The notes under the pieces are model-generated. The model was not told the origin of the DNA, did no database searches, and saw only the letters and a list, made by a program, of their open reading frames with translations. Shown one piece after another: positions 1-24,228 of a stretch of DNA of 24,457 bases. Each line of letters begins with the position of its first letter. Position 1 is the first letter of the stretch. The DNA is taken from the UHGV virus genome UHGV-0127207; one strand, given 5' to 3'. Made by a program: the position numbers and the translations under genes. This DNA is from a virus.

Positions 1-1063
1 CTTCTCCCAAACCAAGGTATGCGAGAAGACCAGCGACATCCTTTCCACTCAAATTAGTCAGCGTATTGTCCAGCGGTTGTTTACCTGCCAGCGCATTAAG
101 CATTGTCGTGGCAAAGTTCGGATCATTCCCCAACGCCGACGCCAGTTCGTTCAGTGTATCCAGTGCCGCAGGTGCAGAACCTACCATTGCTGCAATCGCC
201 GATTTCACAAAAGCCGTGGTGGCAATCTGTGTATTGTTGACCGACTGTGCAGCAGTGGGGGCTGTTGGCGTTCCGGTGAGTGCCGGACTCGACAACGGCG
301 CTTTCAGTGCCAGCGCATTGTTAATGGTGGTACTGAAATTCGGATCATTGTTAATGGCTGCGGCTATTTCTTTCAGCGTGTCCAGCGTGGCTGGCGCACC
401 ATTAATAAGAGCCGTCAGTGCCGCCTGAACAAACGCGGTGGTCGCAACCTGCGTGGTGTTATTCCCTGCCGCTGGAGTTGGCGCTTTTGGTGTCCCGGTA
501 AACGTCGGACTTTCTTTGGGTGCATACTGTGAATGCGGGTCCGGTGCGGCAAGATGTTTTGCCATCTGATCATCCACGTACACCTTCAGCTCCAGTACCT
601 TGTCATCCACATACTTGCGGGTTGCCAGCACTACGGCAGGGTCGATTTTCAGGGTGATATTGTCCGTGCTGCTGGTAATCAGCACCATGCGCACGGTCTG
701 GGTACGCCCGCTGCCTTCAGCCAGTTGCGGCTTATAGCTTTCCGGGCAGTTGCCCACGGCAATCAATGCCCCGGACTCATCAAACAGGCCCACTTCACGT
801 ATCCACCAACCGCCCTCGTTTTCAGGGATCACCTGTTCAGCAATAATCTGGCTGCTGTTCTGCGGGTCGATATAGAGCATATTCAGCGCAGCCCGGCGTT
901 TCTCATTTACCAATGCTGTCTGCTTGGCGTCCGGCGTTGGCAATGTTCCGCCGCCATCGCCCACCGCCATATGGGTAATTTTTAGCGGCACACCGAGCGC
1001 GGCGGCGCTGGCAAGTTTCGCCGCGCCAATATCCGTCAGCAGGGTATAAAATTTTGTGCTCAT
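1..1063 (-). CDS. H: Tail fibre protein gpH, N-terminal part (gene continues past window start)
   Basis: ATG at 1063-1061 on minus strand translates MSTKFYTLLTDIGAAKLASAAALGVPLKITHMAVGDGGGTLPTPDA..., followed by repeated ...NDPNF(S/A)TT... motifs typical of P2-family tail fibres; start overlaps gpI stop (ATGA); frame open where hand-checked; absent from ORF track because it has no stop in the window. Confidence 0.85.
   Translation of the reverse strand, partial: MSTKFYTLLTDIGAAKLASAAALGVPLKITHMAVGDGGGTLPTPDAKQTALVNEKRRAALNMLYIDPQNSSQIIAEQVIPENEGGWWIREVGLFDESGALIAVGNCPESYKPQLAEGSGRTQTVRMVLITSSTDNITLKIDPAVVLATRKYVDDKVLELKVYVDDQMAKHLAAPDPHSQYAPKESPTFTGTPKAPTPAAGNNTTQVATTAFVQAALTALINGAPATLDTLKEIAAAINNDPNFSTTINNALALKAPLSSPALTGTPTAPTAAQSVNNTQIATTAFVKSAIAAMVGSAPAALDTLNELASALGNDPNFATTMLNALAGKQPLDNTLTNLSGKDVAGLLAYLGLGE
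85..500 (-). repeat. Imperfect tandem duplication (about 220 bp period) inside tail fibre gene H
   Basis: Compare 91-146 with 312-359 and 181-258 with 409-480; translated units TQVATTAFVQAALTALINGAPATLDTLKEIAAAINNDPNFSTT and TQIATTAFVKSAIAAMVGSAPAALDTLNELASALGNDPNFATT. Confidence 0.6.
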
Positions 1064-1665
1064 GGATTCACTCTCATTGTGTCAATAACATGGACCGCCC
1101 CGCCTTCATGCGCGGTGCCGCCGGAAATAATTGTTTCGTTGATATACGGATAGATCGTGATTTCTTCGCCAAGATAGCTGGCGGCCCCCACCCAATGCGG
1201 ACCGCTGGTCTGCAGATTGATGGACATGCCGATCATGTGACGGCTACATGGTTTGGCATCGCTTATCAGCCGCTCAAGTTCCAGATAGGTATCTTCAGTG
1301 ATGCCCTGGTCCTGCACGCCGATATCCAGGCGAAACGTGCCCGGTGTTTCTCCGGTCTGCCACCACTCAATAATGCGGATCAGGAATCCGAACGGTTCCA
1401 CCACCCGCCGCACGGCACTGGTAGTTCCTTTATGCTGATGAATATAAAAAGCATCCTTCACTACCTGGCGTTTGACGCTTTCTGTCCAGCCCTCGTCCCA
1501 GCGATCCACAGAGAACGCCCAGGCGAGATAAGGCAGGAAGCTGATCGGACAGGTAGCCGGATTCCACAAGTCACGCAGCGGCACCTGCAGATCAGAAATC
1601 CCGCTACAGGTTTGCGCCAGTCGGCGCTCCAGTGAAGTTGAACCCGGTGGCAGCAGACTATTCAT
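1060..1665 (-). CDS. I: Baseplate assembly protein gpI
   Basis: 201 aa ORF; position between J and H in conserved P2 order V-W-J-I-H; overlaps J stop and H start. Confidence 0.85.
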   Translation of the reverse strand: MNSLLPPGSTSLERRLAQTCSGISDLQVPLRDLWNPATCPISFLPYLAWAFSVDRWDEGWTESVKRQVVKDAFYIHQHKGTTSAVRRVVEPFGFLIRIIEWWQTGETPGTFRLDIGVQDQGITEDTYLELERLISDAKPCSRHMIGMSINLQTSGPHWVGAASYLGEEITIYPYINETIISGGTAHEGGAVHVIDTMRVNP

Positions 1666-2566
1666 CCGTTCCTCCGTTGGTTACGCTCCACTGCGTACAT
1701 GATGCCGCCTGTGTTTTGTTCAGGACCACATCCGCCAGCGGAGAAGCCAGTTCCACACGTTGAACACCCTCAACATGCAGAGCAGCAAAGATGGCGCTAC
1801 GGCGAATATCCCGACCAAGCCTCGTCTGGCTGGCAATGTACTTCTGCAGACTGGCTTTTGCCGCTGCCATTACCGGCTCTGCTTCCGGTCCCGGATAGAG
1901 AAAAATGGTGGCTTCCACGCGATACGGGATGATTTCTGCGCTGCGAACCGTAAGACGGTCAGCCACCGGGCGGACGTTCTCACTGTTCAGAGCTTTTTCC
2001 ACCACGTCCAGCAGGTCTTTTTCTGCAGTTCCATCGCCTTCGCGGCTAAGGACAGTCAGCACCACCTCTGCAGGTGCCGGGCTGGTTGCACTGGCATCCG
2101 CCACCCGACCGTCGGCGCTTCGGGCATGAAATTCATAAGCTGCAGTTGGCCCCGCAACTGAAAGCCCTTCAAAGGCTGCAGGCACACGCAGGCGTAACGC
2201 TTCATCGCTTTCCATCACAGCTGCAACGGGCGGCACAGCGTCATTATCAGCAGGCGTCACCGTCAGGCGTTTCACGTTGTAGTTGGCGGCGAGCTGGTCC
2301 AGATCGCCCCCTATGGCATAAGCCACCATCACCGCCTGCGCGGCTTCGTTAATGCGCTGGCGCAGAAGCAACTCACGGTAAGCATTCTCCTGCAACAATT
2401 TGGTGACGGGTTCAGATTCCAGCTCCAGCGTGCGGATCACTGCTTCCTGCTCATCTTTCGGATGAAGCGCCACAAATTCTGCCTTGCGTTCGGCAAGCAG
2501 CGTCTCAAAGTCCGGCACATCCACAATCTGCGGCGCAGGCAGCTGCGAAAGGTCAATCACTGCCAT
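1658..2566 (-). CDS. J: Baseplate assembly protein gpJ
   Basis: ORF 1658..2605; ATG at 2566 (MAVIDLSQLPAPQIVDVPDFETLL...) gives 302 aa as in P2 J; the upstream GTG at 2605 is the alternative start. Confidence 0.85.
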   Translation of the reverse strand: MAVIDLSQLPAPQIVDVPDFETLLAERKAEFVALHPKDEQEAVIRTLELESEPVTKLLQENAYRELLLRQRINEAAQAVMVAYAIGGDLDQLAANYNVKRLTVTPADNDAVPPVAAVMESDEALRLRVPAAFEGLSVAGPTAAYEFHARSADGRVADASATSPAPAEVVLTVLSREGDGTAEKDLLDVVEKALNSENVRPVADRLTVRSAEIIPYRVEATIFLYPGPEAEPVMAAAKASLQKYIASQTRLGRDIRRSAIFAALHVEGVQRVELASPLADVVLNKTQAASCTQWSVTNGGTDE

Positions 2567-2912
2567 TCTCTGCTCCTGTTGATACGGAAAGGGAAACAGG
2601 CACACCGTTATTACGCCGCCCGGTCAGCTCCACCACCATTGAACCGTCAAAATTGCTGTTAATGGTGATGGAATCCAGCGTCAGCCGTGGCTCCCAGCGA
2701 CTCAGCGCCACATACACTGCCGACATGACCTGCAGGCGTAATGCCGGATTTTGTGGCTGGTCTATCAGTGCCGACAGCAGGGAACCATATTCCCGACGGG
2801 CAATGCGGCTACCCTGCGGCGTCAGCAAAATGTCCCGCACCGACTGGCGCAGATGATCAATATCAGTAATGGCTTTACCGCTGGTATTGTTCATCCCGCT
2901 ATAAAGCGTCAT
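2553..2912 (-). CDS. W: Baseplate protein gpW
   Basis: 119 aa ORF between V and J; start overlaps V stop; size and position match P2 W. Confidence 0.85.
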   Translation of the reverse strand: MTLYSGMNNTSGKAITDIDHLRQSVRDILLTPQGSRIARREYGSLLSALIDQPQNPALRLQVMSAVYVALSRWEPRLTLDSITINSNFDGSMVVELTGRRNNGVPVSLSVSTGAENGSD

Positions 2913-3487
2913 ACCGGGCCTCCGGTTGTGTCGCCGCCTTTCAGGACGTCAGTATGCTGATGCGCATCAACCACGATCCCGTTAGAACTCATCGCTCCGC
3001 CGCCCTGGGTAACGCCACCATTGATCACCACTTCGCTGTTAATGCGCGTGCGGTCAGCCTCCAGTACAAACTCACTGGTTTTCATGGTGATGTTGTCAGC
3101 GGCCTCAATGACCATTGATTTGATGCCCCTGACATACCAGCGCCCGGTAGTGGGTTCGTATTCAAACCAGCCGCCGTCAGGATGTTCTGTCACGCAGGCG
3201 TCTGCCGACGTCGACGGTGGTGCGAACTGATTCGAATAGACAGCGGGCAGCGCAAAGGCAGTTTCCAGATTGCCGCCCAGACTCAGCAGCACCACCTGCT
3301 CACCTTCCGATGGTCGCCACCATGTGCGGGCATTCCCGGCACGCAGCGTCAGCCAGCTGATCCAGTTGGTTTCAAGCTCGCCCGTTTTCACCCGGCAAAG
3401 CCAGTTTTCCCGGTCCACTTCGGTGACTACACCAGTGCGGATCAGGTTGGTGATAAGGCGCATGATTTCGGTTAGTTGTGCGTTCAT
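2909..3487 (-). CDS. V: Baseplate spike/assembly protein gpV
   Basis: ORF 2909..3595; ATG at 3487 (MNAQLTEIMRLITNLIRTGVVTEVDRENWLCRV...) chosen as start; P2 gpV-like; first gene of the V-W-J-I-H operon. Confidence 0.85.
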   Translation of the reverse strand: MNAQLTEIMRLITNLIRTGVVTEVDRENWLCRVKTGELETNWISWLTLRAGNARTWWRPSEGEQVVLLSLGGNLETAFALPAVYSNQFAPPSTSADACVTEHPDGGWFEYEPTTGRWYVRGIKSMVIEAADNITMKTSEFVLEADRTRINSEVVINGGVTQGGGAMSSNGIVVDAHQHTDVLKGGDTTGGPV

Positions 3488-3582
3488 AGGGTTAGGTTGC
3501 ACGGACCTTGAATCTATGGCATCAATACGTCCTTGTGTGGTAAATGACACAAATACAATTCCAATCAAAGAAAGGTAAAAGA

Positions 3583-4113
3583 ATGAGCCATCCAATTGAT
3601 TATTACGCTATAGAAGAACACGCAAGAATAATTGAGCAATTATGCTGTTCATCTGAATTTTATTTACAGCGTATATATTCCACACAGAAAGTATATGATG
3701 GTTCTATAGTAACTGAATTTGAAATGGAGGAGTTATCGTACAACGGATGGTTGGAATATACCATTAGCAACAATCTTATTAGCCTTTGTACAAAACTACG
3801 AATTCTCCAAGACACTAGTGAACATGAGTGGAACCCAGATTACTCACCTGAGAAAGAAGCATTTGAAGAACATGAAAATATACTTTTTGTTATAGATGGT
3901 CATGTTAAAGATTCTATACGCGAATGCTGCAATAAAATTATTCACGCATTAAGTTTTGAGTTAACAAAAAAGACCGGCAAAAATGGAATAAAATATTGGG
4001 ACGGTTCTATTATTGCTTCTGGGGTTCAAAACAAAAAAAACTGGAAAATTAAAATAGACCTTTTCCCTTTTTGCCAAAGCATAAAAAGTTATTTAAGTTT
4101 ATTAAGAGCGTAA
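3583..4113 (+). CDS. Hypothetical protein of unknown function (moron inserted between tail genes S and V, opposite strand)
   Basis: ORF 3544..4113; ATG at 3583 preceded by AAAGG with 7 nt spacer; visibly A+T-rich; opposite orientation to all flanking structural genes; no motif I can recognise. Confidence 0.6.
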   Translation: MSHPIDYYAIEEHARIIEQLCCSSEFYLQRIYSTQKVYDGSIVTEFEMEELSYNGWLEYTISNNLISLCTKLRILQDTSEHEWNPDYSPEKEAFEEHENILFVIDGHVKDSIRECCNKIIHALSFELTKKTGKNGIKYWDGSIIASGVQNKKNWKIKIDLFPFCQSIKSYLSLLRA

Positions 4114-4118
4114 ACATT

Positions 4119-4571
4119 CTAATTTTTCATCAATAAATACTTTAAAAGTAAATCTCTTACTTCATTTTCAGTATGTTCATTTAAACCCAGCAATTTTCGG
4201 GATGGATACTTAATGACTCCCCCCTTTGGACTGACGCGATCGCGCAGACCGTAGTGATGAACACGGGCAATACGCTGTACCTTACCTTCAAACTGTACGC
4301 TGGCAGAATCCGCGCTGGCGGCAGTTCTCAGGTATTTTGTAGTGCGCAGCTTTGCAAACATCTGACGTTTGATGCGCCCCTTCTTGCTGCGTGCTGTTAC
4401 CCTGCGCGGCTCATAACTGCTGCCATCTGGATTGCGCTGCATCCTGATATTCTGCTGCTGTGTCCGGCGCAGTTCCTGCGCCAGCTGGCGCATCATTCGG
4501 CTTCTTGCGGCTGGTTCCAGATTCGCCAGCAAAGCACTCAGCCAGTCGTCCACCTTCTGCAGTTCAGCCAC
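4119..4571 (-). CDS. S: Tail completion protein gpS
   Basis: 150 aa ORF (MAELQKVDDWLSALLANLEPAARSRMMRQLAQELRR...), P2 gpS-like; overlaps R stop. Confidence 0.85.
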   Translation of the reverse strand: MAELQKVDDWLSALLANLEPAARSRMMRQLAQELRRTQQQNIRMQRNPDGSSYEPRRVTARSKKGRIKRQMFAKLRTTKYLRTAASADSASVQFEGKVQRIARVHHYGLRDRVSPKGGVIKYPSRKLLGLNEHTENEVRDLLLKYLLMKN

Positions 4572-5016
4572 GTTTCACCGTCCACATTTCTTCAGGTTCA
4601 TCGGGTTCCGCTACTGCTTCAACGCTCGACACACTTCCGTCAGTGCTGACCAGCACACGTTCCGTCAGTTGCAGGTTGAGGCTGATATCACAGACATCGT
4701 TGCGCAGAATATCCACCTCAAAGGTGAATAACTTTTCCCGTAACGCCGGATTATTGATGGCATCGGGCTGGTTATCACGCAGCCACAGCAAAACCGGGGC
4801 CATCAGCAGATTCTGGTCGCCGCTGAAATCCTCAATCACCACGTTGAGGGTATAACGGTACTCCCATGACATGGAGCTGGCCCCCGTGGCAACCAGCGAA
4901 CCGTTATCCACAAACAGATGCAGCTTATCCGGGTTATTGCGGACATAAGGCACTGCTTTATTGAGGGCGTGGCGCAGGGATTGTGGTTTGTTCACTGTTT
5001 CGCTCCTGACACGCAA
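4564..5016 (-). CDS. R: Tail completion protein gpR
   Basis: 150 aa ORF immediately after lysC; P2 gpR-like; conserved order lysC-R-S. Confidence 0.85.
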   Translation of the reverse strand: MRVRSETVNKPQSLRHALNKAVPYVRNNPDKLHLFVDNGSLVATGASSMSWEYRYTLNVVIEDFSGDQNLLMAPVLLWLRDNQPDAINNPALREKLFTFEVDILRNDVCDISLNLQLTERVLVSTDGSVSSVEAVAEPDEPEEMWTVKRG

Positions 5017-5248
5017 TAATCATGTCCACTTTGTCTGCACAGACCGCCCAGGCGGCCTCCGTTTCATCCAGCAATGCGTTCAGATCACCGTTAGTGCGCG
5101 GCGCTGCCTGCTCCAGCCGACACGGCGTCACTCGCGGACAACCACTGACGGTAAGCTGCACCTCCGGTGAGTGCCGGACGTTCCCGCAGCCGGATAATGT
5201 CAGCAGGCAAAGGAGTATCAGCCCAGCGGCGTAAATCCTCGTTCTCAC
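4958..5248 (-). CDS. lysC: Outer-membrane lipoprotein spanin (LysC/Rz1-like)
   Basis: 96 aa; N-terminal signal with lipobox LTLSGC; starts inside lysB in another frame and runs past its end, the classic overlapped spanin arrangement. Confidence 0.8.
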   Translation of the reverse strand: MRTRIYAAGLILLCLLTLSGCGNVRHSPEVQLTVSGCPRVTPCRLEQAAPRTNGDLNALLDETEAAWAVCADKVDMIIACQERNSEQTTIPAPRPQ

Positions 5249-5519
5249 GTTTCAGTTCCTCGATCCGGTGTTGTCGTTGTCTCAGCAGCGCGCTGGTCTG
5301 TTCTGCTTCGGCATAGAGCCGCGCCTGCTCCCGGTTATTGGTTTCAGCCAGAATGGACAGACTGATCAGCTGGCTATTTTTCTTCGTTAGTTCGTGCGCT
5401 TTACTTTTCAGCGCCGCGCGCTGCGTTTCGATGGTGTGGCTGGCATCAGCCAGCCGCCACATCTGCCAGCCCAGCGACGCCAGTAATAACGCCAGCACAA
5501 CCAGCAGCAACCGGTTCAT
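5091..5519 (-). CDS. lysB: Inner-membrane spanin (LysB/Rz-like)
   Basis: 142 aa; N-terminal hydrophobic segment LLLVVLALLLASLGW followed by charged coiled-coil-like region; contains the embedded lysC start. Confidence 0.8.
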   Translation of the reverse strand: MNRLLLVVLALLLASLGWQMWRLADASHTIETQRAALKSKAHELTKKNSQLISLSILAETNNREQARLYAEAEQTSALLRQRQHRIEELKRENEDLRRWADTPLPADIIRLRERPALTGGAAYRQWLSASDAVSAGAGSAAH

Positions 5520-5893
5520 GCTGCCACCTGTTGCGCCATCTGGTTACGAGTGATCCAGAAGGCAATAACGGTCAGCAGATAAAAGACCAGGGTAATGGCC
5601 CACCCCGTCCAGGCGAGACTTACGATAATCAGCAATCGCATCACCCAACTGATAAATACGTTTTCTTTTCGGGTAATTGTCTTCAGCAAAGATGCCCTTA
5701 ACTCCTGCCAGAGCGGGCCATTCTTAATTAACGCAGCCAGTGCTACCGGAATTACCGCCCATGTCAGCAAACAGGCTACCCAAACGCCGGACGCTGCCAG
5801 TACCGGAAAAATCCCCTGCGGATACACCATTGCTGCGATTAACAGCGCCATCCATAACATCAGAAACAGCCCGCTGATTACTTTCTTTTTCAT
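5516..5893 (-). CDS. lysA: LysA-like multi-pass membrane protein (lysis timing)
   Basis: ORF 5516..6004; ATG at 5893 (MKKKVISGLFLMLWMALLIAAMVYP...) taken as start, directly after the K stop at 5895; about four hydrophobic segments; position K-lysA-lysB as in P2. Confidence 0.7.
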   Translation of the reverse strand: MKKKVISGLFLMLWMALLIAAMVYPQGIFPVLAASGVWVACLLTWAVIPVALAALIKNGPLWQELRASLLKTITRKENVFISWVMRLLIIVSLAWTGWAITLVFYLLTVIAFWITRNQMAQQVAA

Positions 5894-5894
5894 T

Positions 5895-6407
5895 TCAGTT
5901 TGCTCCCTGTAAGCACCAGGCCATCTCCCGCGCACGGCGGTTATCCAGCCCCTGATTAAACACACCTTTAACATAAACCCAGCGCGGCAACTGTCGGCAC
6001 GCATCCGCCCAGAGCCGCTGATTGAGTAATTTCACCAGTGTGGAACTGCAGGCATTGCCCGTTCCCACGTTGAAGGCAAACGACACCACCGCGTCATACA
6101 CCTTTTGCGGCGGCTGTTGCTTCACACACCTTTCCAGTGCCCGCTCCACACGCAGCACGTTGGAAATCAGCCCTTCTGCTGCCTGTCGTTCCGTGATTGT
6201 TTTGCCGGGAATGACGCCCGATGTATTACCAATGCCGTCGGTCCAGACACCTGCACTGCACTGATACGGCTGCAGACGGCAGCCTTCGTAATCGGCAATT
6301 AGTTTCAGCCCCTCCACGGAGGTGTGAAGCTGCTGAAAACCCGGCAACGTAGCTGCAATAGCCAGCACGGCCCCGACAAGGCAGCGTTTAACGATTGATG
6401 GATTCAT
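5895..6407 (-). CDS. K: Endolysin (T4-lysozyme-like muramidase) with possible N-terminal signal-anchor-release segment
   Basis: 170 aa; weakly hydrophobic Gly/Ala-rich N-terminus KRCLVGAVLAIAATLPGF followed by catalytic-type motif EGLKLIADYEGCRLQPYQCSAGVWTDGIGNT; start preceded by GGGAGGA. Confidence 0.85.
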   Translation of the reverse strand: MNPSIVKRCLVGAVLAIAATLPGFQQLHTSVEGLKLIADYEGCRLQPYQCSAGVWTDGIGNTSGVIPGKTITERQAAEGLISNVLRVERALERCVKQQPPQKVYDAVVSFAFNVGTGNACSSTLVKLLNQRLWADACRQLPRWVYVKGVFNQGLDNRRAREMAWCLQGAN

Positions 6408-6603
6408 AGTCCTCCCGCGAGATCTGCCCGTCGCGCAGAAGCTGGTAGGCTTTATGTTTGTAGTACCAGTTGATAGCCAGCATCAGCACACCAATCATCA
6501 GGCCGCCCAGCGTTGAGGCATCCTTGATGGACAAATCGCCCAGCCAGGCCAGCACGACGGCGATGCAATACGTGATAAAGGCGCTGATTCGCTCAAGCGT
6601 CAT
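6388..6603 (-). CDS. Y: Holin (two transmembrane segments, class II / pinholin-like)
   Basis: 71 aa; two hydrophobic segments ISAFITYCIAVVLAWL and LGGLMIGVLMLAINWYY with charged C-terminus; sits directly upstream of and overlapping the endolysin. Confidence 0.75.
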   Translation of the reverse strand: MTLERISAFITYCIAVVLAWLGDLSIKDASTLGGLMIGVLMLAINWYYKHKAYQLLRDGQISREDYESINR

Positions 6604-6606
6604 AAT

Positions 6607-6810
6607 TCAGTCCCATAGCTGGACGGTCTGCACGGTGGTGGTGGTCGGAATGTCCGGCAGCTCCACCTGCAGCCCGTGAGGTAAAAAGGGGCCGTATTCG
6701 GCAAGCCCCGGATTTGCCTTCAGTACCTGCTCCGTGACACCCTGCGTGCGCCCGTAATGACGCCAGCAAAGTGCGTCCACCGTGTCATACTGATGCGCAC
6801 GCACTTTCAT
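6607..6810 (-). CDS. X: Tail protein gpX
   Basis: 67 aa (MKVRAHQYDTVDALCWRHYGRTQGVTEQVLKANPGLAEYGPFLPHGLQVELPD...), same length and position as P2 gpX. Confidence 0.85.
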   Translation of the reverse strand: MKVRAHQYDTVDALCWRHYGRTQGVTEQVLKANPGLAEYGPFLPHGLQVELPDIPTTTTVQTVQLWD

Positions 6811-7337
6811 CAGATAAGCTCCACTGTGCAGTGCGGCGCATCCTGCACCCGGCTGATGGCCCAGCGGGCGTCACGCCATAAATCACCGCTTGCTTCCGCC
6901 AGTTCCTCGCCTCGCTTCGCACCGGATGCCGTGGCGTCATAGTCCTGGTAACGTTCGTTGAGCATGGCGCGTGCCCAGCAGTAAACCGCGTTGAAATAGT
7001 GCTGAATGCGCTCGCTTTTGCCGTCCAGTTGTTCCGCCGGGACTTCTGCCAGCGAGGCATACCCCAGCATCTGCTGGCGTCTGCGAAACTCATACAGCTC
7101 TGCGTTGACCTCCGAAATTGCCGACAGCGCAACCTGCTTTAAACGCGGCTGCGTCACCGTGCCGTCAGTGCGCATGACACTGCGAAACTCCGACAGGTCC
7201 ACATCAGGCCAGAACGGCGTATTTCTGATGATTTCCGCCTGTTCCGGTGCCTGTTCTGGCGCAACAAACTTCATGCTGCTTTCTCCTGAAATAGAGGGCG
7301 GTGGACGGGGTTTTGATGTGGCAGTGCCTTTCGCCAC
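6810..7337 (-). CDS. L: Head completion/stabilisation protein gpL
   Basis: 175 aa ORF downstream of M; P2 gpL-like. Confidence 0.85.
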   Translation of the reverse strand: MAKGTATSKPRPPPSISGESSMKFVAPEQAPEQAEIIRNTPFWPDVDLSEFRSVMRTDGTVTQPRLKQVALSAISEVNAELYEFRRRQQMLGYASLAEVPAEQLDGKSERIQHYFNAVYCWARAMLNERYQDYDATASGAKRGEELAEASGDLWRDARWAISRVQDAPHCTVELI

Positions 7338-7369
7338 CCCGTGCCGCCCGTGCGCGGGGGCACGTTCTG

Positions 7370-8020
7370 TCAGCGGCTGTCATTGCGCAGTCTGCGCTCC
7401 AGCTGCTGTTTGTCTTTTTTCACGCCACAGCGGGGATCGAGCTGTAACGCATGGTTGAGATGATTAAGGGCAGACGCCGGATTGCCTTCACTCAGGACCG
7501 CGCCAATCGCTTTATGCAGACGCGCCCGTGACTGATCCGGCATATCCAGACCGTCTGTCAGCTCCAGCGTCTGTAGCAACAGATCGGCATCAAAGCCGGT
7601 GGCGGCAAGCATTGCGCTCTGCGCCGCGTCTGCCATTTCCTCTGCCAGCACGGTCTGCACGTTGCGGTTACCCAGCGGCATCACCCACCCATGACGCAGG
7701 GCATGACGCCCAATCTCCAGCGCCCCGGCATAATCTCCGGCATCAATGCGCCACAGCATCACGTACATCAGCACGTCATCCTGTTGAGCTCCTCCGGCAG
7801 CCAGGACGCCCTCCGCCCAGGCGGCATATTTCGGCAGCAGCTCCACCTTGATTTCCGCTTTTTTCACCGTGGACTGAACGCCCTTGAGACGGCGGCGGTC
7901 TTCCGCCAGTTGCAGCAGCATCAGGTCATAGCCCGATGCGTGGCGAACACTGCCGCCCTCACGGGCGGCCTGTTCAGCCTGAACGCGCAGGCGATGCTGC
8001 CGTGCGGGACTCAGGCTCAT
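7370..8020 (-). CDS. M: Terminase small (endonuclease) subunit gpM
   Basis: 216 aa ORF directly downstream of capsid gene N; P2 gpM-like. Confidence 0.85.
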   Translation of the reverse strand: MSLSPARQHRLRVQAEQAAREGGSVRHASGYDLMLLQLAEDRRRLKGVQSTVKKAEIKVELLPKYAAWAEGVLAAGGAQQDDVLMYVMLWRIDAGDYAGALEIGRHALRHGWVMPLGNRNVQTVLAEEMADAAQSAMLAATGFDADLLLQTLELTDGLDMPDQSRARLHKAIGAVLSEGNPASALNHLNHALQLDPRCGVKKDKQQLERRLRNDSR

Positions 8021-12961: not shown

Positions 12962-12982
12962 AAAACGCTCCTAAGAGCGTTT
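12962..12982. terminator. Candidate bidirectional hairpin terminator between convergent Q and the accessory operon
   Basis: AAACGCTC-CTAA-GAGCGTTT inverted repeat with T-rich stretches on both strands; the stop codon of the 239-aa gene lies in the loop. Confidence 0.35.
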
Positions 12983-13690
12983 CTGTTTACGGTTTGACTC
13001 TATTTGTTTTTTTAGCTGGATAAGCCTTTCAACTAACTCAAACACTTTTGTACTTGGATTATCAGTATCGCTAGCTTCAGCAGCCTGTAAACTTCTCTTA
13101 GCCCTAAGGACTACTTCATTTAAATCTTTTGACTCTAAAGCGTTTAGGGTTTTCTGAAAAATCCCTTTTGAGCCTTTCTCATAGTCCTTAATATATTTTC
13201 TTAACTCATTTACAATTTGATTTCCTGAACTATTACCAGGTAAATTTCTAAATGCCTTTGTCGAATAGGTATAATGTAGAAGTAACCAATATTCAAAACA
13301 AGGTACTGAATTCACAGTAAACCAAGTTGAGCTTGGTTTACTTCTCCTGATAGCGTCAAGCGCTGCCATGTAATCAGAGTGGGCATCCTTATCAATCACT
13401 ACAAAGATTTGATCATAAGGAGCCCCCTGTTCAGTCATTTTTTTATGCTGTGCTTTTGCATGACGAACAACACACATAGGACTAGAGCCACATTCTCCAG
13501 TTACATCAATTACACTTGCTGTAAGTAATTCAAAATGATTTATCAAATCCTCAAAGTAATTTGGTTCAGTTTTTTTACCCTCACAAACAATTAATATTTT
13601 AGCGAGAGGGGATTTTATTGCATTACGTCTTGCTAGATCCTTAGCCGTTTTAGGGGCACGTTTCTTTTTGAATAAATCCTCGCTTCCCAT
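12971..13690 (-). CDS. TOPRIM-like protein (RloB/AbiLii-type or DUF4435/AriB-type), second gene of a candidate anti-phage pair
   Basis: 239 aa; N-terminal ILIVCEGKKTEPNYF and downstream VVIDKDAHSD consistent with a TOPRIM E...DxD core; A+T-rich; starts 1 nt after the upstream ATPase gene stops. Confidence 0.6.
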   Translation of the reverse strand: MGSEDLFKKKRAPKTAKDLARRNAIKSPLAKILIVCEGKKTEPNYFEDLINHFELLTASVIDVTGECGSSPMCVVRHAKAQHKKMTEQGAPYDQIFVVIDKDAHSDYMAALDAIRRSKPSSTWFTVNSVPCFEYWLLLHYTYSTKAFRNLPGNSSGNQIVNELRKYIKDYEKGSKGIFQKTLNALESKDLNEVVLRAKRSLQAAEASDTDNPSTKVFELVERLIQLKKQIESNRKQKRS

Positions 13691-13691
13691 A

Positions 13692-14957
13692 TCAAATCCC
13701 CGTCAATTTCTTGATGAACGGCAATGCTCCATACCGACCGTCTAGGTATGCGGCTTCTAAATTTTCTCTTCCTTTCCTTGGACTAAAATCAGTCAATGGA
13801 TATAGATTAGTTTCACTGAGTTCATTTTTCTCACAAAACCAAACTTGATCACGTCTAAAAATGCTTTGATTCAGAATGGATGTTTCATGTGTTGAGAAAA
13901 TTAACTGCGCACCTTTTTTATTAGTAACCGGACTATTAAAAAGATTTACCAAGAAACTAACCAACTTTGGATGCAATGTATCGTGAAGCTCGTCGATTAA
14001 TAGTACATATCCATTATCGAGCGCATCTAACCATGGACCAGCTAAAGAAAAAAGCTTTTGAGTGCCATGAGATTCCTCTTCAAGAGAAAAACTTACCGGC
14101 TCACCTTTATCGTTATAATGGACAGTAGTAACATCAAAAACTTCTTTATCCTTCATATTAGAAATAACGATTTTTTTGATATCATCTGGCATATCAGATG
14201 GCAAATCATCTGGATTAAATTTTTCTTTCTTAACTAAAACATCATCAATGCCAATATCTGCAGCTTGCAAAAAATTCAAGATATCTTTCTTCATATCCTC
14301 GGTGCAGCGTTTAGCGGAGAATGTATTAGCCCATCCATTAATTCCAGAAAGTCTCAGTGTTTTTTTAAACCAAGTAAAAACAGGCTTAAGCTGCTCGCTA
14401 TTTAATTGAACAGCTGTAGACAAGAACAGGGCATTATTTCTAGTTGAACGCTGCCAAACTTGTTTTTCACCAAGTAGTGATGCGCCAAAATCCCAATCAT
14501 ATTCCTGCTTCTCTTCATCCCAAGCTCTGAAATACCACTTTTGAGGCCTTCCTTTTGGGTACGCAAAGAGCCATTCATCAATAATTCTTTCATTTGTAGC
14601 AGAAAAACCAAATTGATACCGGGTGCCCTCTGCAATAAAAGTAACTTCAAATTCAGTAGGTTTTTTAATTGAATCTGAATCAAGCTTGAAGGGGAATACG
14701 GGAACCTCTTCACCAGCCTGAGAGTTAGATGCAGAGTGGATAACTAAATCCATCATAGCCCTGACAGCCAGAAGTACATTCGACTTGCCCGCTGCATTCG
14801 CACCGTAAATAACAGCTGACTTTAGAACATTAAGGTTAACGTTTCCCTCTACTGTAAAGATATTCTCTTTTAACTCGTTACTTTTGTTAGCAATAAGTGA
14901 AAGTGTTTGTTTGTTTTTGATTGAGAGATAGTTCTCAACATTGAATTCAATAAGCAT
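13692..14957 (-). CDS. ABC/SMC-like P-loop ATPase (AAA_15/AAA_21-type), first gene of a candidate anti-phage pair
   Basis: 421 aa; Walker A GANAAGKSN, Walker B VLLIDELHD, H-loop-like FSTHET; strong RBS AGGAGGG before the ATG; A+T-rich. Confidence 0.7.
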   Translation of the reverse strand: MLIEFNVENYLSIKNKQTLSLIANKSNELKENIFTVEGNVNLNVLKSAVIYGANAAGKSNVLLAVRAMMDLVIHSASNSQAGEEVPVFPFKLDSDSIKKPTEFEVTFIAEGTRYQFGFSATNERIIDEWLFAYPKGRPQKWYFRAWDEEKQEYDWDFGASLLGEKQVWQRSTRNNALFLSTAVQLNSEQLKPVFTWFKKTLRLSGINGWANTFSAKRCTEDMKKDILNFLQAADIGIDDVLVKKEKFNPDDLPSDMPDDIKKIVISNMKDKEVFDVTTVHYNDKGEPVSFSLEEESHGTQKLFSLAGPWLDALDNGYVLLIDELHDTLHPKLVSFLVNLFNSPVTNKKGAQLIFSTHETSILNQSIFRRDQVWFCEKNELSETNLYPLTDFSPRKGRENLEAAYLDGRYGALPFIKKLTGI

Positions 14958-16061: not shown

Positions 16062-16295
16062 TTAATGCAGCCAGCTGTCGTCCTCCCACACCTTCTGCAT
16101 AATTTTCATCACTTGTTTTCTTTCTTCATCCAGTTGCAGTCCGGTTAGTTCCACACCGTTAGAGCTACCTTTGCGAATGCGAATTACCGTTTTGGGATAC
16201 AGGGGGCGCAGATTGCGGTAAAGCTCGGATTCAAGGGCGTCCAGGGTAGACTGGCTAATCTTCTGCTCTTTATCGATCATTATTTCAATGCGCAT
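16062..16295 (-). CDS. dinI: DinI-family protein (DNA damage-inducible protein I homologue)
   Basis: ORF 16062..16367; ATG at 16295 preceded by GAGGTGA gives 77 aa MRIEIMIDKEQKISQSTLDALESELYRNLRPLYPKTVIRIRKGSSNGVELTGLQLDEERKQVMKIMQKVWEDDSWLH, alignable to E. coli DinI (MRIEVTIAK...ELSRR...ETWESADDWF). Confidence 0.8.
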   Translation of the reverse strand: MRIEIMIDKEQKISQSTLDALESELYRNLRPLYPKTVIRIRKGSSNGVELTGLQLDEERKQVMKIMQKVWEDDSWLH

Positions 16296-16305
16296 AAAAG
16301 TCACC

Positions 16306-16494
16306 TCAGCTGATGACATCCATTGAGCGGTTGTATTCGTGGCTTCTGATTTTTGCCATGAGTTCATCAGTCAATTCAGAAACCCACTGCAGAGCCAGCC
16401 CCTTCTCTTCATCACTACACTCACTAGCCGCTACAAGCTTAAGAAAAAAATCAATGCGCTGGAGCTTCAAAGACTCCAAAAAATAGTCCTGCAT
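16306..16494 (-). CDS. Small SOS-controlled protein, candidate antirepressor (Tum-like role)
   Basis: 62 aa; strong RBS AGGAGG; first gene after the LexA box and directly upstream of dinI; functional assignment is inference from context only. Confidence 0.45.
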   Translation of the reverse strand: MQDYFLESLKLQRIDFFLKLVAASECSDEEKGLALQWVSELTDELMAKIRSHEYNRSMDVIS

Positions 16495-22125: not shown

Positions 22126-22695
22126 GTGGATTTCAATAGCGGCGGTAAGAAAGCCATAGAACGTTTAGTTGAAGCATATGGGTTCGGTACCCGTCAGGCT
22201 CTCTGTGATCATTTAGGTGTTTCTAAGAGCACCATGGCAACGCGCTATATGCGTGATATTTTTCCAGCAGATTGGGTAATCCAGTGCGCCCTTGAAACGG
22301 GCACCTCGCTTAATTGGCTAACAACAGGGCATGGTTCAAAGCAAGCATCAGCAAATACAAATACTATAGAAGTAGAAAAATATTTATTGTCTGATGGAGC
22401 ATTGCAGAAAGACGGTTTTTATATTTTTGATAAGGGATTTCTACCCTCTACGTTTAAAAAACCTTTTGTCATCACAGATAACAATTCTGAATTTATTTGT
22501 GATAAAGAATTTGATGATATACGTGATGGTAAATGGGTAATAAGTATTGATGGCGAAATAACGATCCGTGACATTACTCGTTTACCCGGTGGAAGAATCT
22601 TCGTCGAGGGTGGAAACAGAGCCTTCGAATGCAAGATAGAAGACATTGAAATAATTGGTAAAATTATAAGTTTAACAGTCAAGTATGTTAAATAG
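22126..22695 (+). CDS. cI: CI immunity repressor (186-type, N-terminal HTH)
   Basis: ORF 22039..22695; GTG at 22126 preceded by GGAGGA gives about 189 aa; HTH region GTRQALCDHLGVSKSTMATRYMRD; start uncertain (SD spacing short). Confidence 0.75.
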   Translation: MDFNSGGKKAIERLVEAYGFGTRQALCDHLGVSKSTMATRYMRDIFPADWVIQCALETGTSLNWLTTGHGSKQASANTNTIEVEKYLLSDGALQKDGFYIFDKGFLPSTFKKPFVITDNNSEFICDKEFDDIRDGKWVISIDGEITIRDITRLPGGRIFVEGGNRAFECKIEDIEIIGKIISLTVKYVK

Positions 22696-22710
22696 TACCG
22701 GGAGGAAACT

Positions 22711-22902
22711 ATGCTTGGTAAGGTATTTTTTGTGGTTTTGTCATGTTCTTTGTTATTAAACCCACTAACTACCTATGCTAGAAATTATCCCTGCTCAGGG
22801 AAAAAGGGAGGTGTTTCTCACTGTACCTCAGATGGCAAATTCGTTTGCAATGATGGAACTATTAGTAAATCCAAAAAAATCTGTACTAAAAACTCACGAT
22901 AA
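22711..22902 (+). CDS. Small secreted cysteine-rich protein (moron in the cI-int operon)
   Basis: 63 aa; strong RBS GGGAGGAAACT-ATG; N-terminal signal peptide [23 protein letters not shown]; mature part basic with four Cys; A+T-rich. Confidence 0.55.
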
Positions 22903-23090
22903 CTTTTGCTTTTATATCTGCGTCTAAAATAAAAATGAGCCGCAGGTTAACCGCAAAAGTTACATGCTCACATAGCAAAAAGAATAGCCAACTTCATGAT
23001 GGCTTCAGTGAGATGTATGGTCGTAGGATTTCATACATTGACACTGGTTATACATACAGTAAAAATGCTCTCTACTGGAGGGCATTTTTT

Positions 23091-24143
23091 ATGGCAGTAC
23101 GAAAACTCACCACAGGGAAATGGCTTTGCGAATGTTACCCCGCCGGACGTAGTGGGCGTCGTGTGCGTAAACAATTCGCCACCAAAGGCGAAGCTCTGGC
23201 TTTTGAGCGCCACACGATGGAAGAAACCGAAGCAAAGCCCTGGCTGGGTGAATCAGTGGATCGTCGAACACTGAAAGACGTAGTTGAGCTATGGTTCAAA
23301 CTACATGGTAAATCTCTGACAGCTGGGCAGCATGTCTATGACAAATTGCTGTTGATGGTTGACGCTCTGGGTAATCCTCTTGCAACCGATCTCACCTCTA
23401 AAATGTTTGCCCACTATCGAGATAAACGCCTGACAGGCGAGATCTACTTCAGCGAGAAATGGAAGAAAGGAGCAAGCCCGGTCACCATTAACCTGGAGCA
23501 AAGCTATCTAAGTAGTGTTTTTAGCGAACTATCCCGTCTGGGCGAATGGTCGTATCCGAACCCACTGGAGAACATGCGAAAATTCACCATCGCAGAAAAA
23601 GAGATGGCATGGCTTACCCATGAGCAGATTGTTGAATTGCTGGCTGATTGCAAACGTCAGGACCCAATTCTGGCACTGGTAGTTAAGATATGCTTAAGCA
23701 CAGGCGCACGCTGGCGTGAAGCCGTAAATCTTACCCGCTCACAGGTGACCAAATACCGAATTACCTTTGTCAGAACGAAGGGGAAGAAAAACAGAAGCAT
23801 CCCTATCAGTAAAGAGCTTTACGAAGAGATCATGGCGCTTGATGGGTTCAATTTCTTTACAGACTACTATTTTCAATTTTTATCCGTGATGGAAAAAACG
23901 TCTATCGTGCTCCCTCGCGGTCAACTCACACACGTTCTGCGCCATACGTTTGCGGCGCACTTCATGATGTCGGGTGGAAACATTCTCGCCTTACAAAAAA
24001 TTCTCGGACACCACGATATAAAAATGACTATGCGTTACGCACATCTGGCACCAGATCATCTGGAAACGGCGCTCCGTTTCAATCCTCTGGCAACGCTGCC
24101 AAGTGGCGACAAAGTGGCGGCAGCGGTTGGCATTACCCCGTAA
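23091..24143 (+). CDS. int: Tyrosine integrase (P2/186 family)
   Basis: ORF 22935..24143; ATG at 23091 (MAVRKLTTGKWLCECYPAGR...) taken as start; C-terminal catalytic region HVLRHTFAAHFMMSGGNILALQKILGHHDIKMTMRYAHLAPDHL with catalytic Tyr in MRYAHL. Confidence 0.9.
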   Translation: MAVRKLTTGKWLCECYPAGRSGRRVRKQFATKGEALAFERHTMEETEAKPWLGESVDRRTLKDVVELWFKLHGKSLTAGQHVYDKLLLMVDALGNPLATDLTSKMFAHYRDKRLTGEIYFSEKWKKGASPVTINLEQSYLSSVFSELSRLGEWSYPNPLENMRKFTIAEKEMAWLTHEQIVELLADCKRQDPILALVVKICLSTGARWREAVNLTRSQVTKYRITFVRTKGKKNRSIPISKELYEEIMALDGFNFFTDYYFQFLSVMEKTSIVLPRGQLTHVLRHTFAAHFMMSGGNILALQKILGHHDIKMTMRYAHLAPDHLETALRFNPLATLPSGDKVAAAVGITP

Positions 24144-24202: not shown

Positions 24203-24228
24203 AACCCGTTTACATAAATGGGTTTTTT
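24203..24228 (+). terminator. Rho-independent terminator-like hairpin downstream of int
   Basis: AACCCGTTTA-CA-TAAATGGGTT stem (one G-T wobble) followed by TTTTTT. Confidence 0.5.

What the first reader, a model, noticed from the sequence alone, without database searches (positions are those of the whole stretch)
22711..22902. Small secreted cysteine-rich protein inserted between cI and int: lysogeny-expressed conversion candidate
In 186/P2 the integrase gene follows the repressor gene directly. Here a 63-aa ORF with a strong RBS, a signal peptide (...LTTYA) and a basic four-cysteine mature peptide of about 40 residues is inserted in that operon, so it would be transcribed with cI in the lysogen. 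Such cargo often mediates superinfection exclusion at the envelope or acts as a secreted effector.
Basis: partly seen in the sequence, partly recalled or inferred. Interest (0 to 1): 0.55.

Follow-up and report, generated by a model that had tools for sequence, protein, structure and literature searches.

The report
Phage-borne YdcA-family small periplasmic protein
The 63-codon gene between the repressor and integrase genes of this P2/186-like E. coli prophage is real and strongly conserved; it encodes a catalogued YdcA-family small exported cysteine-rich protein whose function is unknown, and it is almost certainly made together with the repressor in lysogens.

Summary
ORF 22711..22902 (+) has a GGGAGG ribosome-binding site and a 23-residue signal peptide. 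The mature peptide is 40 residues, +7 and has four cysteines. It lies 15 nt after cI and 188 nt before int, whereas in 186 and P2 nothing lies between those genes.

It is not new as a sequence. It passes the NCBIfam model NF007463 ("YdcA family protein" in RefSeq) and matches PHROG 6000. It occurs in 628 of 5426 complete E. coli genomes, including BL21(DE3).

Alleles differ by 11-12 synonymous and 1-2 non-synonymous changes (dN/dS 0.02-0.04). It is linked about 1:1 to this cI C-terminal type.

Homologues sit directly downstream of unrelated prophage repressors in Yersinia, Buttiauxella, Iodobacter and Comamonas. In Haemophilus phage HP2 the start codon overlaps the cI stop codon.

The only solved relative is Dis2 (Lpg0823), a disulfide-pinned periplasmic component of the outer-membrane cap of the Legionella Dot/Icm secretion system.

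Best reading: a Sec-exported, disulfide-bonded periplasmic mini-protein co-expressed with cI, acting on a conserved envelope target. The phenotype is untested; it could be stress tolerance or superinfection exclusion. It has no match to known defence models. Interest is modest.

The parts
22126..22695 (+). cI immunity repressor (189 aa, GTG start, GGAGG RBS); first gene of the lysogenic operon
   Evidence: Pfam PF07022 E 3.3e-31 and PF16452 E 4.7e-29. RefSeq CDS has the same coordinates in strain 1283. The C-terminal half is low in GC (34%) like the ORF.
22700..22705 (+). Ribosome-binding site GGGAGG, 5 nt before the ATG and 5 nt after the cI stop
   Evidence: Sequence; invariant in the five aligned E. 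coli alleles.
22711..22902 (+). YdcA-family gene (63 aa precursor, stop codon included)
   Evidence: NF007463 115.8 bits against cut-off 93; PHROG 6000 E 1.9e-34; RefSeq product 'YdcA family protein'; dN/dS 0.02-0.04.
22711..22779 (+). Signal peptide, residues 1-23 ([23 protein letters not shown]); predicted signal peptidase I cut after Ala23
   Evidence: Ala at -1 is invariant in 24/24 homologues while the rest of the segment varies freely but stays hydrophobic. Family-wide heuristic. Modelled as a helix, residues 3-15. Cleavage itself is inferred.
22780..22899 (+). Mature 40-aa domain [40 protein letters not shown] (4 Cys, +7)
   Evidence: Invariant P27 C28 S29 K32 G33 G34 C38 F44 C46 D48 G49 S52 S54 K55 C58. 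No amino-acid change in residues 25-63 among the 63-aa E. coli alleles. AlphaFold pLDDT about 88-90 in the core. Best PDB match is Dis2.
22903..23090 (+). Conserved 188-nt spacer between the ORF and int; contains a promoter-like site (23038-23066, 10/12) and the hairpin below
   Evidence: The alignment of alleles shows it as conserved as the coding DNA. Promoter scan. A 2-nt indel in some alleles rules out the longer in-frame int start at 22935.
23061..23089 (+). 13-bp hairpin flanked by A5 and U6, ending 1 nt before the int ATG; the int Shine-Dalgarno GGAGGG (23077-23082) lies in its 3' arm. Terminator or translation-masking candidate.
   Evidence: RNA fold of 23030-23110: -19.1 kcal/mol, z -3.5, 0 of 200 shuffles as stable. 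Near-invariant in the alleles; the only change is in the loop. Function is inferred.
23091..24143 (+). Tyrosine integrase (350 aa)
   Evidence: PF24624 E 3.2e-32 and PF00589 E 4.7e-22. 96-97% identical DNA in Klebsiella and E. coli P2-like phages, whose similarity starts only at about 22990-23033.
24203..24224 (+). Terminator-like hairpin plus T-run after int; likely end of the lysogenic operon, at the prophage/host junction before rcdA
   Evidence: rcdA lies directly downstream in relatives.

Best explanation
The ORF is a phage-borne member of the YdcA family (PF27300 / NCBIfam NF007463), carried as cargo in the cI-int slot of a 186-like prophage integrated next to rcdA.

Proposed mechanism, with my probability for each step:
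1. It is transcribed on the lysogenic (cI) transcript and translated from its own strong RBS 15 nt after the cI stop (inferred, about 0.8). The hairpin and U-run just before int probably limit read-through or int translation, which would make cI-ydcA the main maintenance message (inferred, about 0.4).
2. The 63-aa precursor is exported by Sec and cut after Ala23, giving a 40-aa, 4.3-kDa, +7 peptide in the periplasm (about 0.9).
3. Its four invariant cysteines form two disulfides, as in the homologous lobes of Legionella Dis2 (about 0.7).
4. It acts by docking on a conserved, outer-membrane-proximal envelope component of the host rather than on a phage protein (about 0.6). The mature domain is about 70% identical from E. 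coli to Haemophilus, Moraxella and Herbaspirillum, and chromosomal copies exist.
5. The result is an envelope-level lysogenic conversion. I rate constitutive envelope or stress tolerance, as hinted for chromosomal ydcA, at about 0.35. I rate exclusion of superinfecting phage at about 0.25. The rest is unknown.
For: Identity: NF007463 passes its cut-off. PHROG 6000 matches. PF27300 is precomputed on the homologues. RefSeq uses the family name.

Real gene: 11-12 synonymous against 1-2 non-synonymous differences, and every amino-acid change falls in the signal peptide or at position +1. The gene is intact in 623 of 628 genomes that carry it, while the cI C-terminal segment occurs in 631.

Export: signal-peptide architecture is found across the family. 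K-12 YdcA is described as a predicted periplasmic protein.

Co-expression with the repressor:
- No promoter or terminator is predicted between cI and the ORF.
- In HP2 the ATG overlaps the cI stop (TAATG).
- The same repressor-then-ydcA order occurs in E. coli type 2, Yersinia, Buttiauxella and an S24-type remnant, and next to XRE-type repressors in Iodobacter and Comamonas.
- The decayed BL21(DE3) prophage keeps apl-cI-ydcA-int intact while cII and rep are pseudogenes.

Disulfides and outer-membrane proximity:
- Dis2 is the top PDB hit by profile (E 1.7e-4).
- It is also the top Foldseek hit with two models (prob 0.99 and 0.72-0.75, TMq 0.6).
- Both Dis2 lobes align to the mature peptide (E 4e-5 and 2e-4).
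- The Dis2-like protein P0079 carries a PF27300 hit.
- Dis2 lies near the outer membrane and has five disulfides (PMC8486379).

Stress link: E. coli W lacking ydcA is sensitive to 3-hydroxypropionate, and the same paper cites earlier reports of acid-induced, YdcI-dependent expression (PMC7642389). An RpoS promoter peak lies upstream of K-12 ydcA.

Slot is a cargo site: PSP3 carries a DUF2511 protein there, 813R9 a 558-aa ATPase and other prophages a KAP NTPase. The int-primase interval is a minor defence hotspot (PMC13586616).
Against: - No transcript, protein or phenotype data for this gene were examined.
- No signal-peptide predictor was available, and cleavage and disulfides are inferred.
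- Dis2's own function is unknown and its deletion has only subtle effects.
- The stress phenotype comes from one study of a paralogue. The window protein fails the K-12 YdcA equivalog model (68.5 bits against 118).
- No conserved partner gene gives a functional clue.
- The hairpin before int could equally be a translational control element only.
Confidence: 0.6

Rival explanations
1. Dedicated superinfection-exclusion or anti-phage factor: the periplasmic peptide blocks adsorption, cell-wall penetration or DNA entry of incoming phages.
For: It is expressed from the immunity operon. It sits in the int-primase interval that holds 8% of P2-like defence systems, next to KAP NTPase or ATPase cargo in relatives. 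It recurs as a phage gene in P2-like prophages and in the head-tail modules of Moraxella and Acinetobacter siphophages. At least 19 of 80 species-level loci are in a P2-like prophage context.
Against: It has no PADLOC match. The mature domain is almost invariant across classes and has core chromosomal copies in Enterobacteriaceae, which is unlike proteins in an arms race. The same prophage already carries AbiL in the main hotspot. No partner or target is known.
Confidence: 0.25
2. Accessory subunit or modulator of an envelope-spanning machine (type IV or type VI secretion, conjugation, pili), as Dis2 is for Dot/Icm. The phage copy would interfere with conjugation, pilus-dependent phages or T6SS attack.
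For: Homology to the Dis2 lobes. A 133-aa YdcA-domain protein sits inside a Citrobacter plasmid T6SS cluster, after tssE. UniRef calls the exact protein 'Conjugal transfer protein'.
Against: Most homologues have no secretion-system neighbours. The UniRef name is an unverified submitter label. The plasmid hits examined were phage-like regions or hypothetical genes, not tra operons. Dis2 is dispensable for the structure.
Confidence: 0.1
3. Exported cationic antimicrobial or bacteriocin-like peptide used against competitors.
For: It is small, carries +7 charge and has two putative disulfides, in the manner of defensins.
Against: A Sec signal alone delivers to the periplasm of a Gram-negative cell. 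There is no immunity, export or lysis partner nearby. The gene sits in the constitutive repressor operon, and chromosomal housekeeping-like copies exist.
Confidence: 0.04
4. Not what it seems: a spurious ORF, a cytoplasmic zinc-binding peptide, or a lipoprotein using Cys12.
For: Four cysteines could bind zinc. 'VLSC' at residues 9-12 resembles a lipobox.
Against: dN/dS of 0.02-0.04 and variation with a period of three rule out a spurious ORF. The N-terminal segment is hydrophobic across the family but not conserved in sequence, as signal peptides are. Cys12 is absent from most homologues and is preceded by only 7 hydrophobic residues and by K4. The solved homologue has disulfides.
Confidence: 0.02

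Closest known systems
E. coli K-12 YdcA (b1419; NCBIfam NF007462; Pfam PF27300)
   Same: Same family and architecture: a signal peptide followed by a domain of about 35 aa with the motif PCSGxKGG(V/I)xHC...F(V/I)CxDG(T/S)xSxSKxxC. The function of both is unknown, and K-12 YdcA is predicted to be periplasmic.
   Different: The window protein fails the K-12 equivalog model (68.5 bits against a cut-off of 118) and passes the sister model NF007463. It is prophage-borne in the cI operon. The K-12 gene is chromosomal, lies next to rydC and has an RpoS promoter signal upstream.
[quoted passage not shown]
   Same: Each Dis2 lobe aligns to the mature YdcA domain (GGV..C...G..VCNDG.IS..C; E 4e-5 and 2e-4). 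Dis2 is the top PDB hit by profile and by Foldseek. It is periplasmic, disulfide-pinned and lies next to the outer membrane.
   Different: Dis2 has two tandem lobes and five disulfides, and it is built into a secretion machine. The window protein is a single domain with no secretion system nearby. The Dis2 papers report no homologues outside Legionellales, so this link is my inference from weak but concordant scores.
Other cargo in the cI-int slot of 186-like phages: PSP3 orf28 (DUF2511), the KAP NTPase, the 558-aa ATPase of vB_EcoM-813R9
   Same: Same insertion site and same strand, downstream of cI and upstream of int. PSP3 orf28 is also small (112 aa).
   Different: These are unrelated proteins. 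Where the KAP NTPase is present, it is added after ydcA rather than replacing it.
Repressor-operon or envelope exclusion genes of other phages: lambda rexAB, T4 Sp and Imm, phi80 Cor, T5 Llp (recalled from general knowledge, not tested here)
   Same: The logic is the same: a small gene expressed in the lysogen or early in infection, acting at the envelope.
   Different: No sequence or profile similarity was detected in PHROGs, Pfam or PADLOC. Cor and Llp are lipoproteins and this protein has no conserved lipobox. Exclusion activity is untested here.

Membership tests
YdcA family (NCBIfam NF007463 / Pfam PF27300 / PHROG 6000) | Profile score above the curated cut-off | tested here: met
   NF007463 scores 115.8 bits against a cut-off of 93. 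PHROG 6000 matches at E 1.9e-34 over 56/56 profile positions. PF27300 is precomputed on the 98%-identical cluster representative. The local Pfam copy lacks PF27300.
YdcA family (NCBIfam NF007463 / Pfam PF27300 / PHROG 6000) | Four conserved cysteines and the PCSGxKGG...FxCxDGxxSxSK...C motif in a protein of about 55-65 aa | tested here: met
   All 16 invariant columns of a 24-sequence alignment are present in the window protein.
YdcA family (NCBIfam NF007463 / Pfam PF27300 / PHROG 6000) | N-terminal Sec signal peptide | tested here: met
   Heuristic only: hydrophobic core, a K in the n-region, T-Y-A at positions -3 to -1, and Ala at -1 invariant. No SignalP was available and no experiment was done.
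Orthologue of chromosomal E. coli K-12 ydcA (NF007462 equivalog) | Score above the equivalog cut-off and the chromosomal rydC-ydcA context | tested here: not met
   68.5 bits against a cut-off of 118. The context is a prophage lysogeny module, not rydC.
Dis2 (Lpg0823) of the Dot/Icm T4SS | Two tandem disulfide-pinned lobes | tested here: not met
   The window protein has a single domain. Tandem YdcA-domain proteins exist elsewhere.
Dis2 (Lpg0823) of the Dot/Icm T4SS | Sequence and fold similarity of the lobe | tested here: inconclusive
Dis2 (Lpg0823) of the Dot/Icm T4SS | Physical association with a type IV secretion system | not testable with these tools
   No T4SS genes lie in the window. 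Binding partners are unknown.
Known anti-phage defence or exclusion systems | Match to a defence-protein model | tested here: not met
   PADLOC gives 0 families at E up to 10. The PHROG family is annotated 'unknown function'.
Bacterial lipoprotein (Cor/Llp-type exclusion proteins) | Conserved lipobox Cys after an adequate n- and h-region | tested here: not met
   Cys12 is not conserved among homologues and lies only 8 residues after K4.
Phage moron (extra gene relative to related phages) | Absent from close relatives at the same site, with deviant base composition | tested here: met
   Absent from 186 and P2. GC is 35% against 50% for the window.
Phage moron (extra gene relative to related phages) | Own promoter and terminator | tested here: inconclusive
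   No promoter-like site is predicted upstream on the + strand, so it appears to use the cI transcript. A terminator-like hairpin follows 160 nt downstream.

The most novel reading that the evidence does not exclude
YdcA-domain mini-proteins are an unrecognised, widespread class of repressor-coupled prophage lysogeny factors. They would be homologous to the lobes of the Legionella T4SS component Dis2. Once in the periplasm they would dock under the outer membrane on a conserved envelope complex, either blocking entry of superinfecting phage or other invading DNA, or hardening the envelope. The chromosomal ydcA genes would then be domesticated copies.
Probability: 0.2. Interest if true: 0.6.

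Novelty: already known. Interest (0 to 1): 0.33.

Why it matters
The gene is present in about 12% of complete E. coli genomes, including the laboratory workhorse BL21(DE3). It is under very strong purifying selection and is tied to the prophage repressor in several phage lineages, yet nobody knows what it does.

Because the strains are already in every laboratory, its expression, export and phenotype can be tested cheaply.

A defined function would explain a recurrent piece of lysogenic conversion in P2-like phages. It would also give a first functional handle on chromosomal YdcA and on the Dis2 component of the Legionella secretion system.

Tried and rejected
- The local Pfam copy gave no significant family. 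The family model PF27300 is newer than that copy.
- Rfam found nothing in the window or in the ydcA-int spacer; the only hit was a chance Phe-leader match at E 0.79.
- All-against-all clustering of neighbouring ORFs in 80 species-level loci found no universally conserved partner gene. My crude ORF calling there includes spurious ORFs, so only the Pfam-verified clusters (GPD, tape measure, GPA, cI, cII, int) were used.
- The 'Conjugal transfer protein' label in UniRef could not be traced to any tra-gene context.
- I considered a lipoprotein reading (Cys12), a cytoplasmic zinc-peptide reading and a longer int start at 22935. I rejected them on conservation grounds.
- Searching with a Dis2 fragment returned only two truncated Legionella-type proteins, too few to build a Dis2 profile.
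- tblastn against 50,697 phage records found no enterobacterial phage isolate carrying the gene, so this allele is known only from prophages.

Full report
**1. The observation**

The window is the right-hand 24.5 kb of a P2/186-like prophage that ends next to the host gene rcdA. At the stated coordinates there is an ATG-initiated ORF, 22711..22902 (+), of 63 codons.

- GGGAGG lies 5 nt upstream of the ATG.
- The cI gene (PF07022 + PF16452; true start GTG 22126) stops 15 nt before the ORF.
- The integrase gene (PF24624 + PF00589) starts at 23091. RefSeq gives the same coordinates in a relative.
- The product is [23 protein letters not shown]|[40 protein letters not shown].
- The mature part is 40 aa, 4.29 kDa, pI 9.7, charge about +7, with four cysteines.
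- In 186, cI and int abut directly. In P2, C and int are separated by 115 bp without an ORF.

**2. It is a real gene under strong constraint**

Eight E. coli alleles of 63 codons differ by 11-12 synonymous but only 1-2 non-synonymous changes (dN/dS 0.02-0.04). The amino-acid changes are N17S and T20A in the signal peptide and R24K at position +1. Residues 25-63 never change. Variation in the DNA alignment falls on third codon positions.

The ORF DNA occurs in 628 of 5426 complete E. coli genomes, and 623 of these cover at least 80% of the query. The 3' half of this cI type occurs in 631 genomes. Linkage is therefore essentially 1:1.

I examined one disrupted copy, which is split by an IS5-like element. 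BL21(DE3) carries a decayed copy of this prophage in which cII and the replication gene are pseudogenes, but apl-cI-ydcA-int are intact.

**3. What it is**

The protein passes the NCBIfam model NF007463 (115.8 bits against a cut-off of 93). It fails the sister model for chromosomal K-12 YdcA (68.5 bits against 118). It matches PHROG 6000, annotated 'unknown function', at E 1.9e-34.

RefSeq names it 'YdcA family protein', and the homologues carry the newer Pfam entry PF27300. The exact sequence is already in public collections on 1000 or more contigs.

A profile search of 1.84 billion representatives finds 467 clusters at E up to 0.001. Most are proteins of 55-130 aa, and some have two or three tandem domains.

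An alignment of 24 diverse members shows 16 invariant positions: the Ala at -1 of the signal peptide and 15 in the mature domain, including all four cysteines. The preceding segment varies freely but stays hydrophobic. Cys12 is not conserved, so this is not a lipoprotein.

By my own heuristic, among 191 members:
- 97% have a hydrophobic core;
- 89% have K/R near the N-terminus;
- 92% have a small-x-small site 3-4 residues before the first Cys.

The literature describes K-12 YdcA only as a 57-aa predicted periplasmic protein of unknown function.

**4. Context and expression**

No promoter-like or terminator-like site is predicted between cI and the ORF. The cI C-terminal half, the ORF and the spacer form a low-GC block (34-37%) in a window that is 50% GC overall.

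The order 'prophage repressor, then ydcA on the same strand' recurs with different repressors:
- a second E. coli 186-like type, where a KAP NTPase is added after ydcA;
- Yersinia, Buttiauxella and an S24-type remnant;
- XRE-type repressors of P2-like prophages in Iodobacter and Comamonas;
- Haemophilus phage HP2, where an unannotated 60-aa homologue starts at the A of the cI stop codon (TAATG).

At least 19 of 80 species-level loci lie beside P2-like hallmark genes. Other homologues sit in the head-tail modules of Moraxella and Acinetobacter siphophages. Others are core chromosomal genes, for example next to trg and rydC in Escherichia, or between rplS and yfiB in Citrobacter and Atlantibacter.

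The cI-int slot also carries other cargo in relatives: DUF2511 in PSP3, a 558-aa ATPase in 813R9, and the KAP NTPase. A 2026 survey lists the int-primase interval as a minor defence hotspot of P2-like prophages (PMC13586616).

Together this makes co-expression with the repressor very likely, but no expression data were examined.

**5. The spacer before int**

The 188 nt between the ORF and int are as conserved as the coding DNA. They end in a 13-bp hairpin flanked by A5 and U6 (23061-23089). The hairpin contains the int Shine-Dalgarno sequence and stops 1 nt before the int ATG. The fold energy is -19.1 kcal/mol, z -3.5.

I infer that it attenuates transcription into int or masks int translation. 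That would leave cI-ydcA as the main lysogenic message. This is untested.

**6. Fold and nearest solved relative**

AlphaFold models have pLDDT 77 for the full protein and 81 for the mature domain, with about 88-90 in the core. They show a small beta-hairpin-based domain.

The only meaningful PDB match, by three routes, is chain AN of the Legionella Dot/Icm T4SS structures (7MUC/7MUD):
- profile search: E 1.7e-4 with the signal peptide, and still top at E 0.15 without it;
- Foldseek: top hit with both models (prob 0.99, then 0.72-0.75; TMq 0.6; 38-39% identity);
- BLASTP of the mature peptide against a Dis2-like protein: both lobes align (E 4e-5 and 2e-4). That protein also carries a precomputed PF27300 hit.

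Chain AN is Dis2 (Lpg0823). It has two lobes similar in sequence and structure, pinned by five disulfides and positioned near the outer membrane (PMC8486379). Its deletion leaves the complex intact and changes translocation only subtly. The authors report no homologues outside Legionellales (PMC12716638).

I therefore regard YdcA as a single-lobe relative of Dis2. This supports a periplasmic location, disulfide bonding and a docking role. It does not reveal a function.

**7. Function**

There is no match to PADLOC defence models and no conserved neighbour.

The near-invariance of the mature domain across gamma- and beta-proteobacteria, together with the chromosomal copies, argues for a conserved host envelope target rather than a phage target.

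The only phenotypes reported for a family member concern chromosomal ydcA:
- E. coli W lacking ydcA is sensitive to 3-hydroxypropionate, and the same paper cites earlier reports of acid-induced, YdcI-dependent expression (PMC7642389).
- An RpoS SELEX peak lies upstream of ydcA (PMC5493296).
- It is induced in early stationary phase (bioRxiv 310961).

I therefore favour an envelope-level lysogenic conversion acting on a host component. Stress tolerance (about 0.35) is somewhat more likely than superinfection exclusion (about 0.25). A role at secretion or conjugation machines is about 0.1. A YdcA-domain protein does sit inside a Citrobacter T6SS cluster.

**8. Verdict**

The gene is a catalogued, widespread member of a family of unknown function, not a new kind of element.

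What this analysis adds:
- the quantitative evidence for selection;
- the repressor-coupled synteny across phage lineages;
- the unannotated HP2 homologue;
- the link to Dis2;
- the hairpin before int.

Interest is modest, but the question is cheaply testable in standard laboratory strains.

Noticed in passing
window 12971..14957 (-), and 16062..16367 (-): An AbiL-type abortive-infection pair occupies the classical P2 defence hotspot between the portal gene and gpA. It consists of AbiLii/RloB (239 aa, PADLOC E 1.6e-29) and AbiLi/AAA_21 (421 aa, E 1.1e-100). A DinI-like gene follows it. The otherwise close relative in strain 1283 has different cargo at this site.
   Followed up: partly
window 23061..23089 (+): A 13-bp hairpin flanked by A5 and U6 ends 1 nt before the int start codon and sequesters the int Shine-Dalgarno sequence. 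It is a candidate terminator or translational mask separating cI-ydcA from int. A promoter-like TTGACA-17-AAAAAT lies at 23038-23066.
   Followed up: partly
L001 (Haemophilus phage HP2, NC_003315) 2920..3102 (+): An unannotated 60-aa YdcA homologue lies between cI and orf1(S). Its ATG overlaps the cI stop codon (TAATG). The next gene, orf1(S), encodes a 254-aa protein with a hydrophobic N-terminus that looks like a signal peptide (PF12869). Moraxella caviae has a weak homologue of orf1(S) (28% identity) at the same relative position after its ydcA.
   Followed up: partly
L104 (E. coli BL21(DE3), NZ_CP053602.1) 1..7410: The decayed 186-like prophage of E. coli B keeps apl-cI-ydcA-int intact while cII and the replication gene are pseudogenes. 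An St85-family retron (reverse transcriptase plus effector) lies about 4 kb away in the same remnant.
   Followed up: no
L108 (Citrobacter sp. TSA-1 plasmid) 4926..5327 (+): A 133-aa protein with an N-terminal YdcA domain and a long basic linker sits inside a type VI secretion gene cluster, directly after tssE.
   Followed up: no
P0081-P0085, P0088 (metagenomic and genomic proteins): YdcA domains also occur as two or three tandem repeats joined by Ser/Lys-rich linkers, the same architecture as Dis2.
   Followed up: no
L013 (contig labelled 'Bacillota bacterium' MAG): A 3-kb contig assigned to a Bacillota metagenome-assembled genome carries a YdcA ORF identical in protein sequence to the window's. 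Its int (99%), cII (99%) and cI (87%) are close to the E. coli versions. This looks like binning contamination rather than a Gram-positive host.
   Followed up: no
window 22441..23090: The cI C-terminal half, ydcA and the spacer form one low-GC block (34-37%) in a window that is 50% GC overall. Similarity to Klebsiella and E. coli P2-like phage isolates starts only at about 22990-23033, so a mosaic junction lies inside the spacer.
   Followed up: partly
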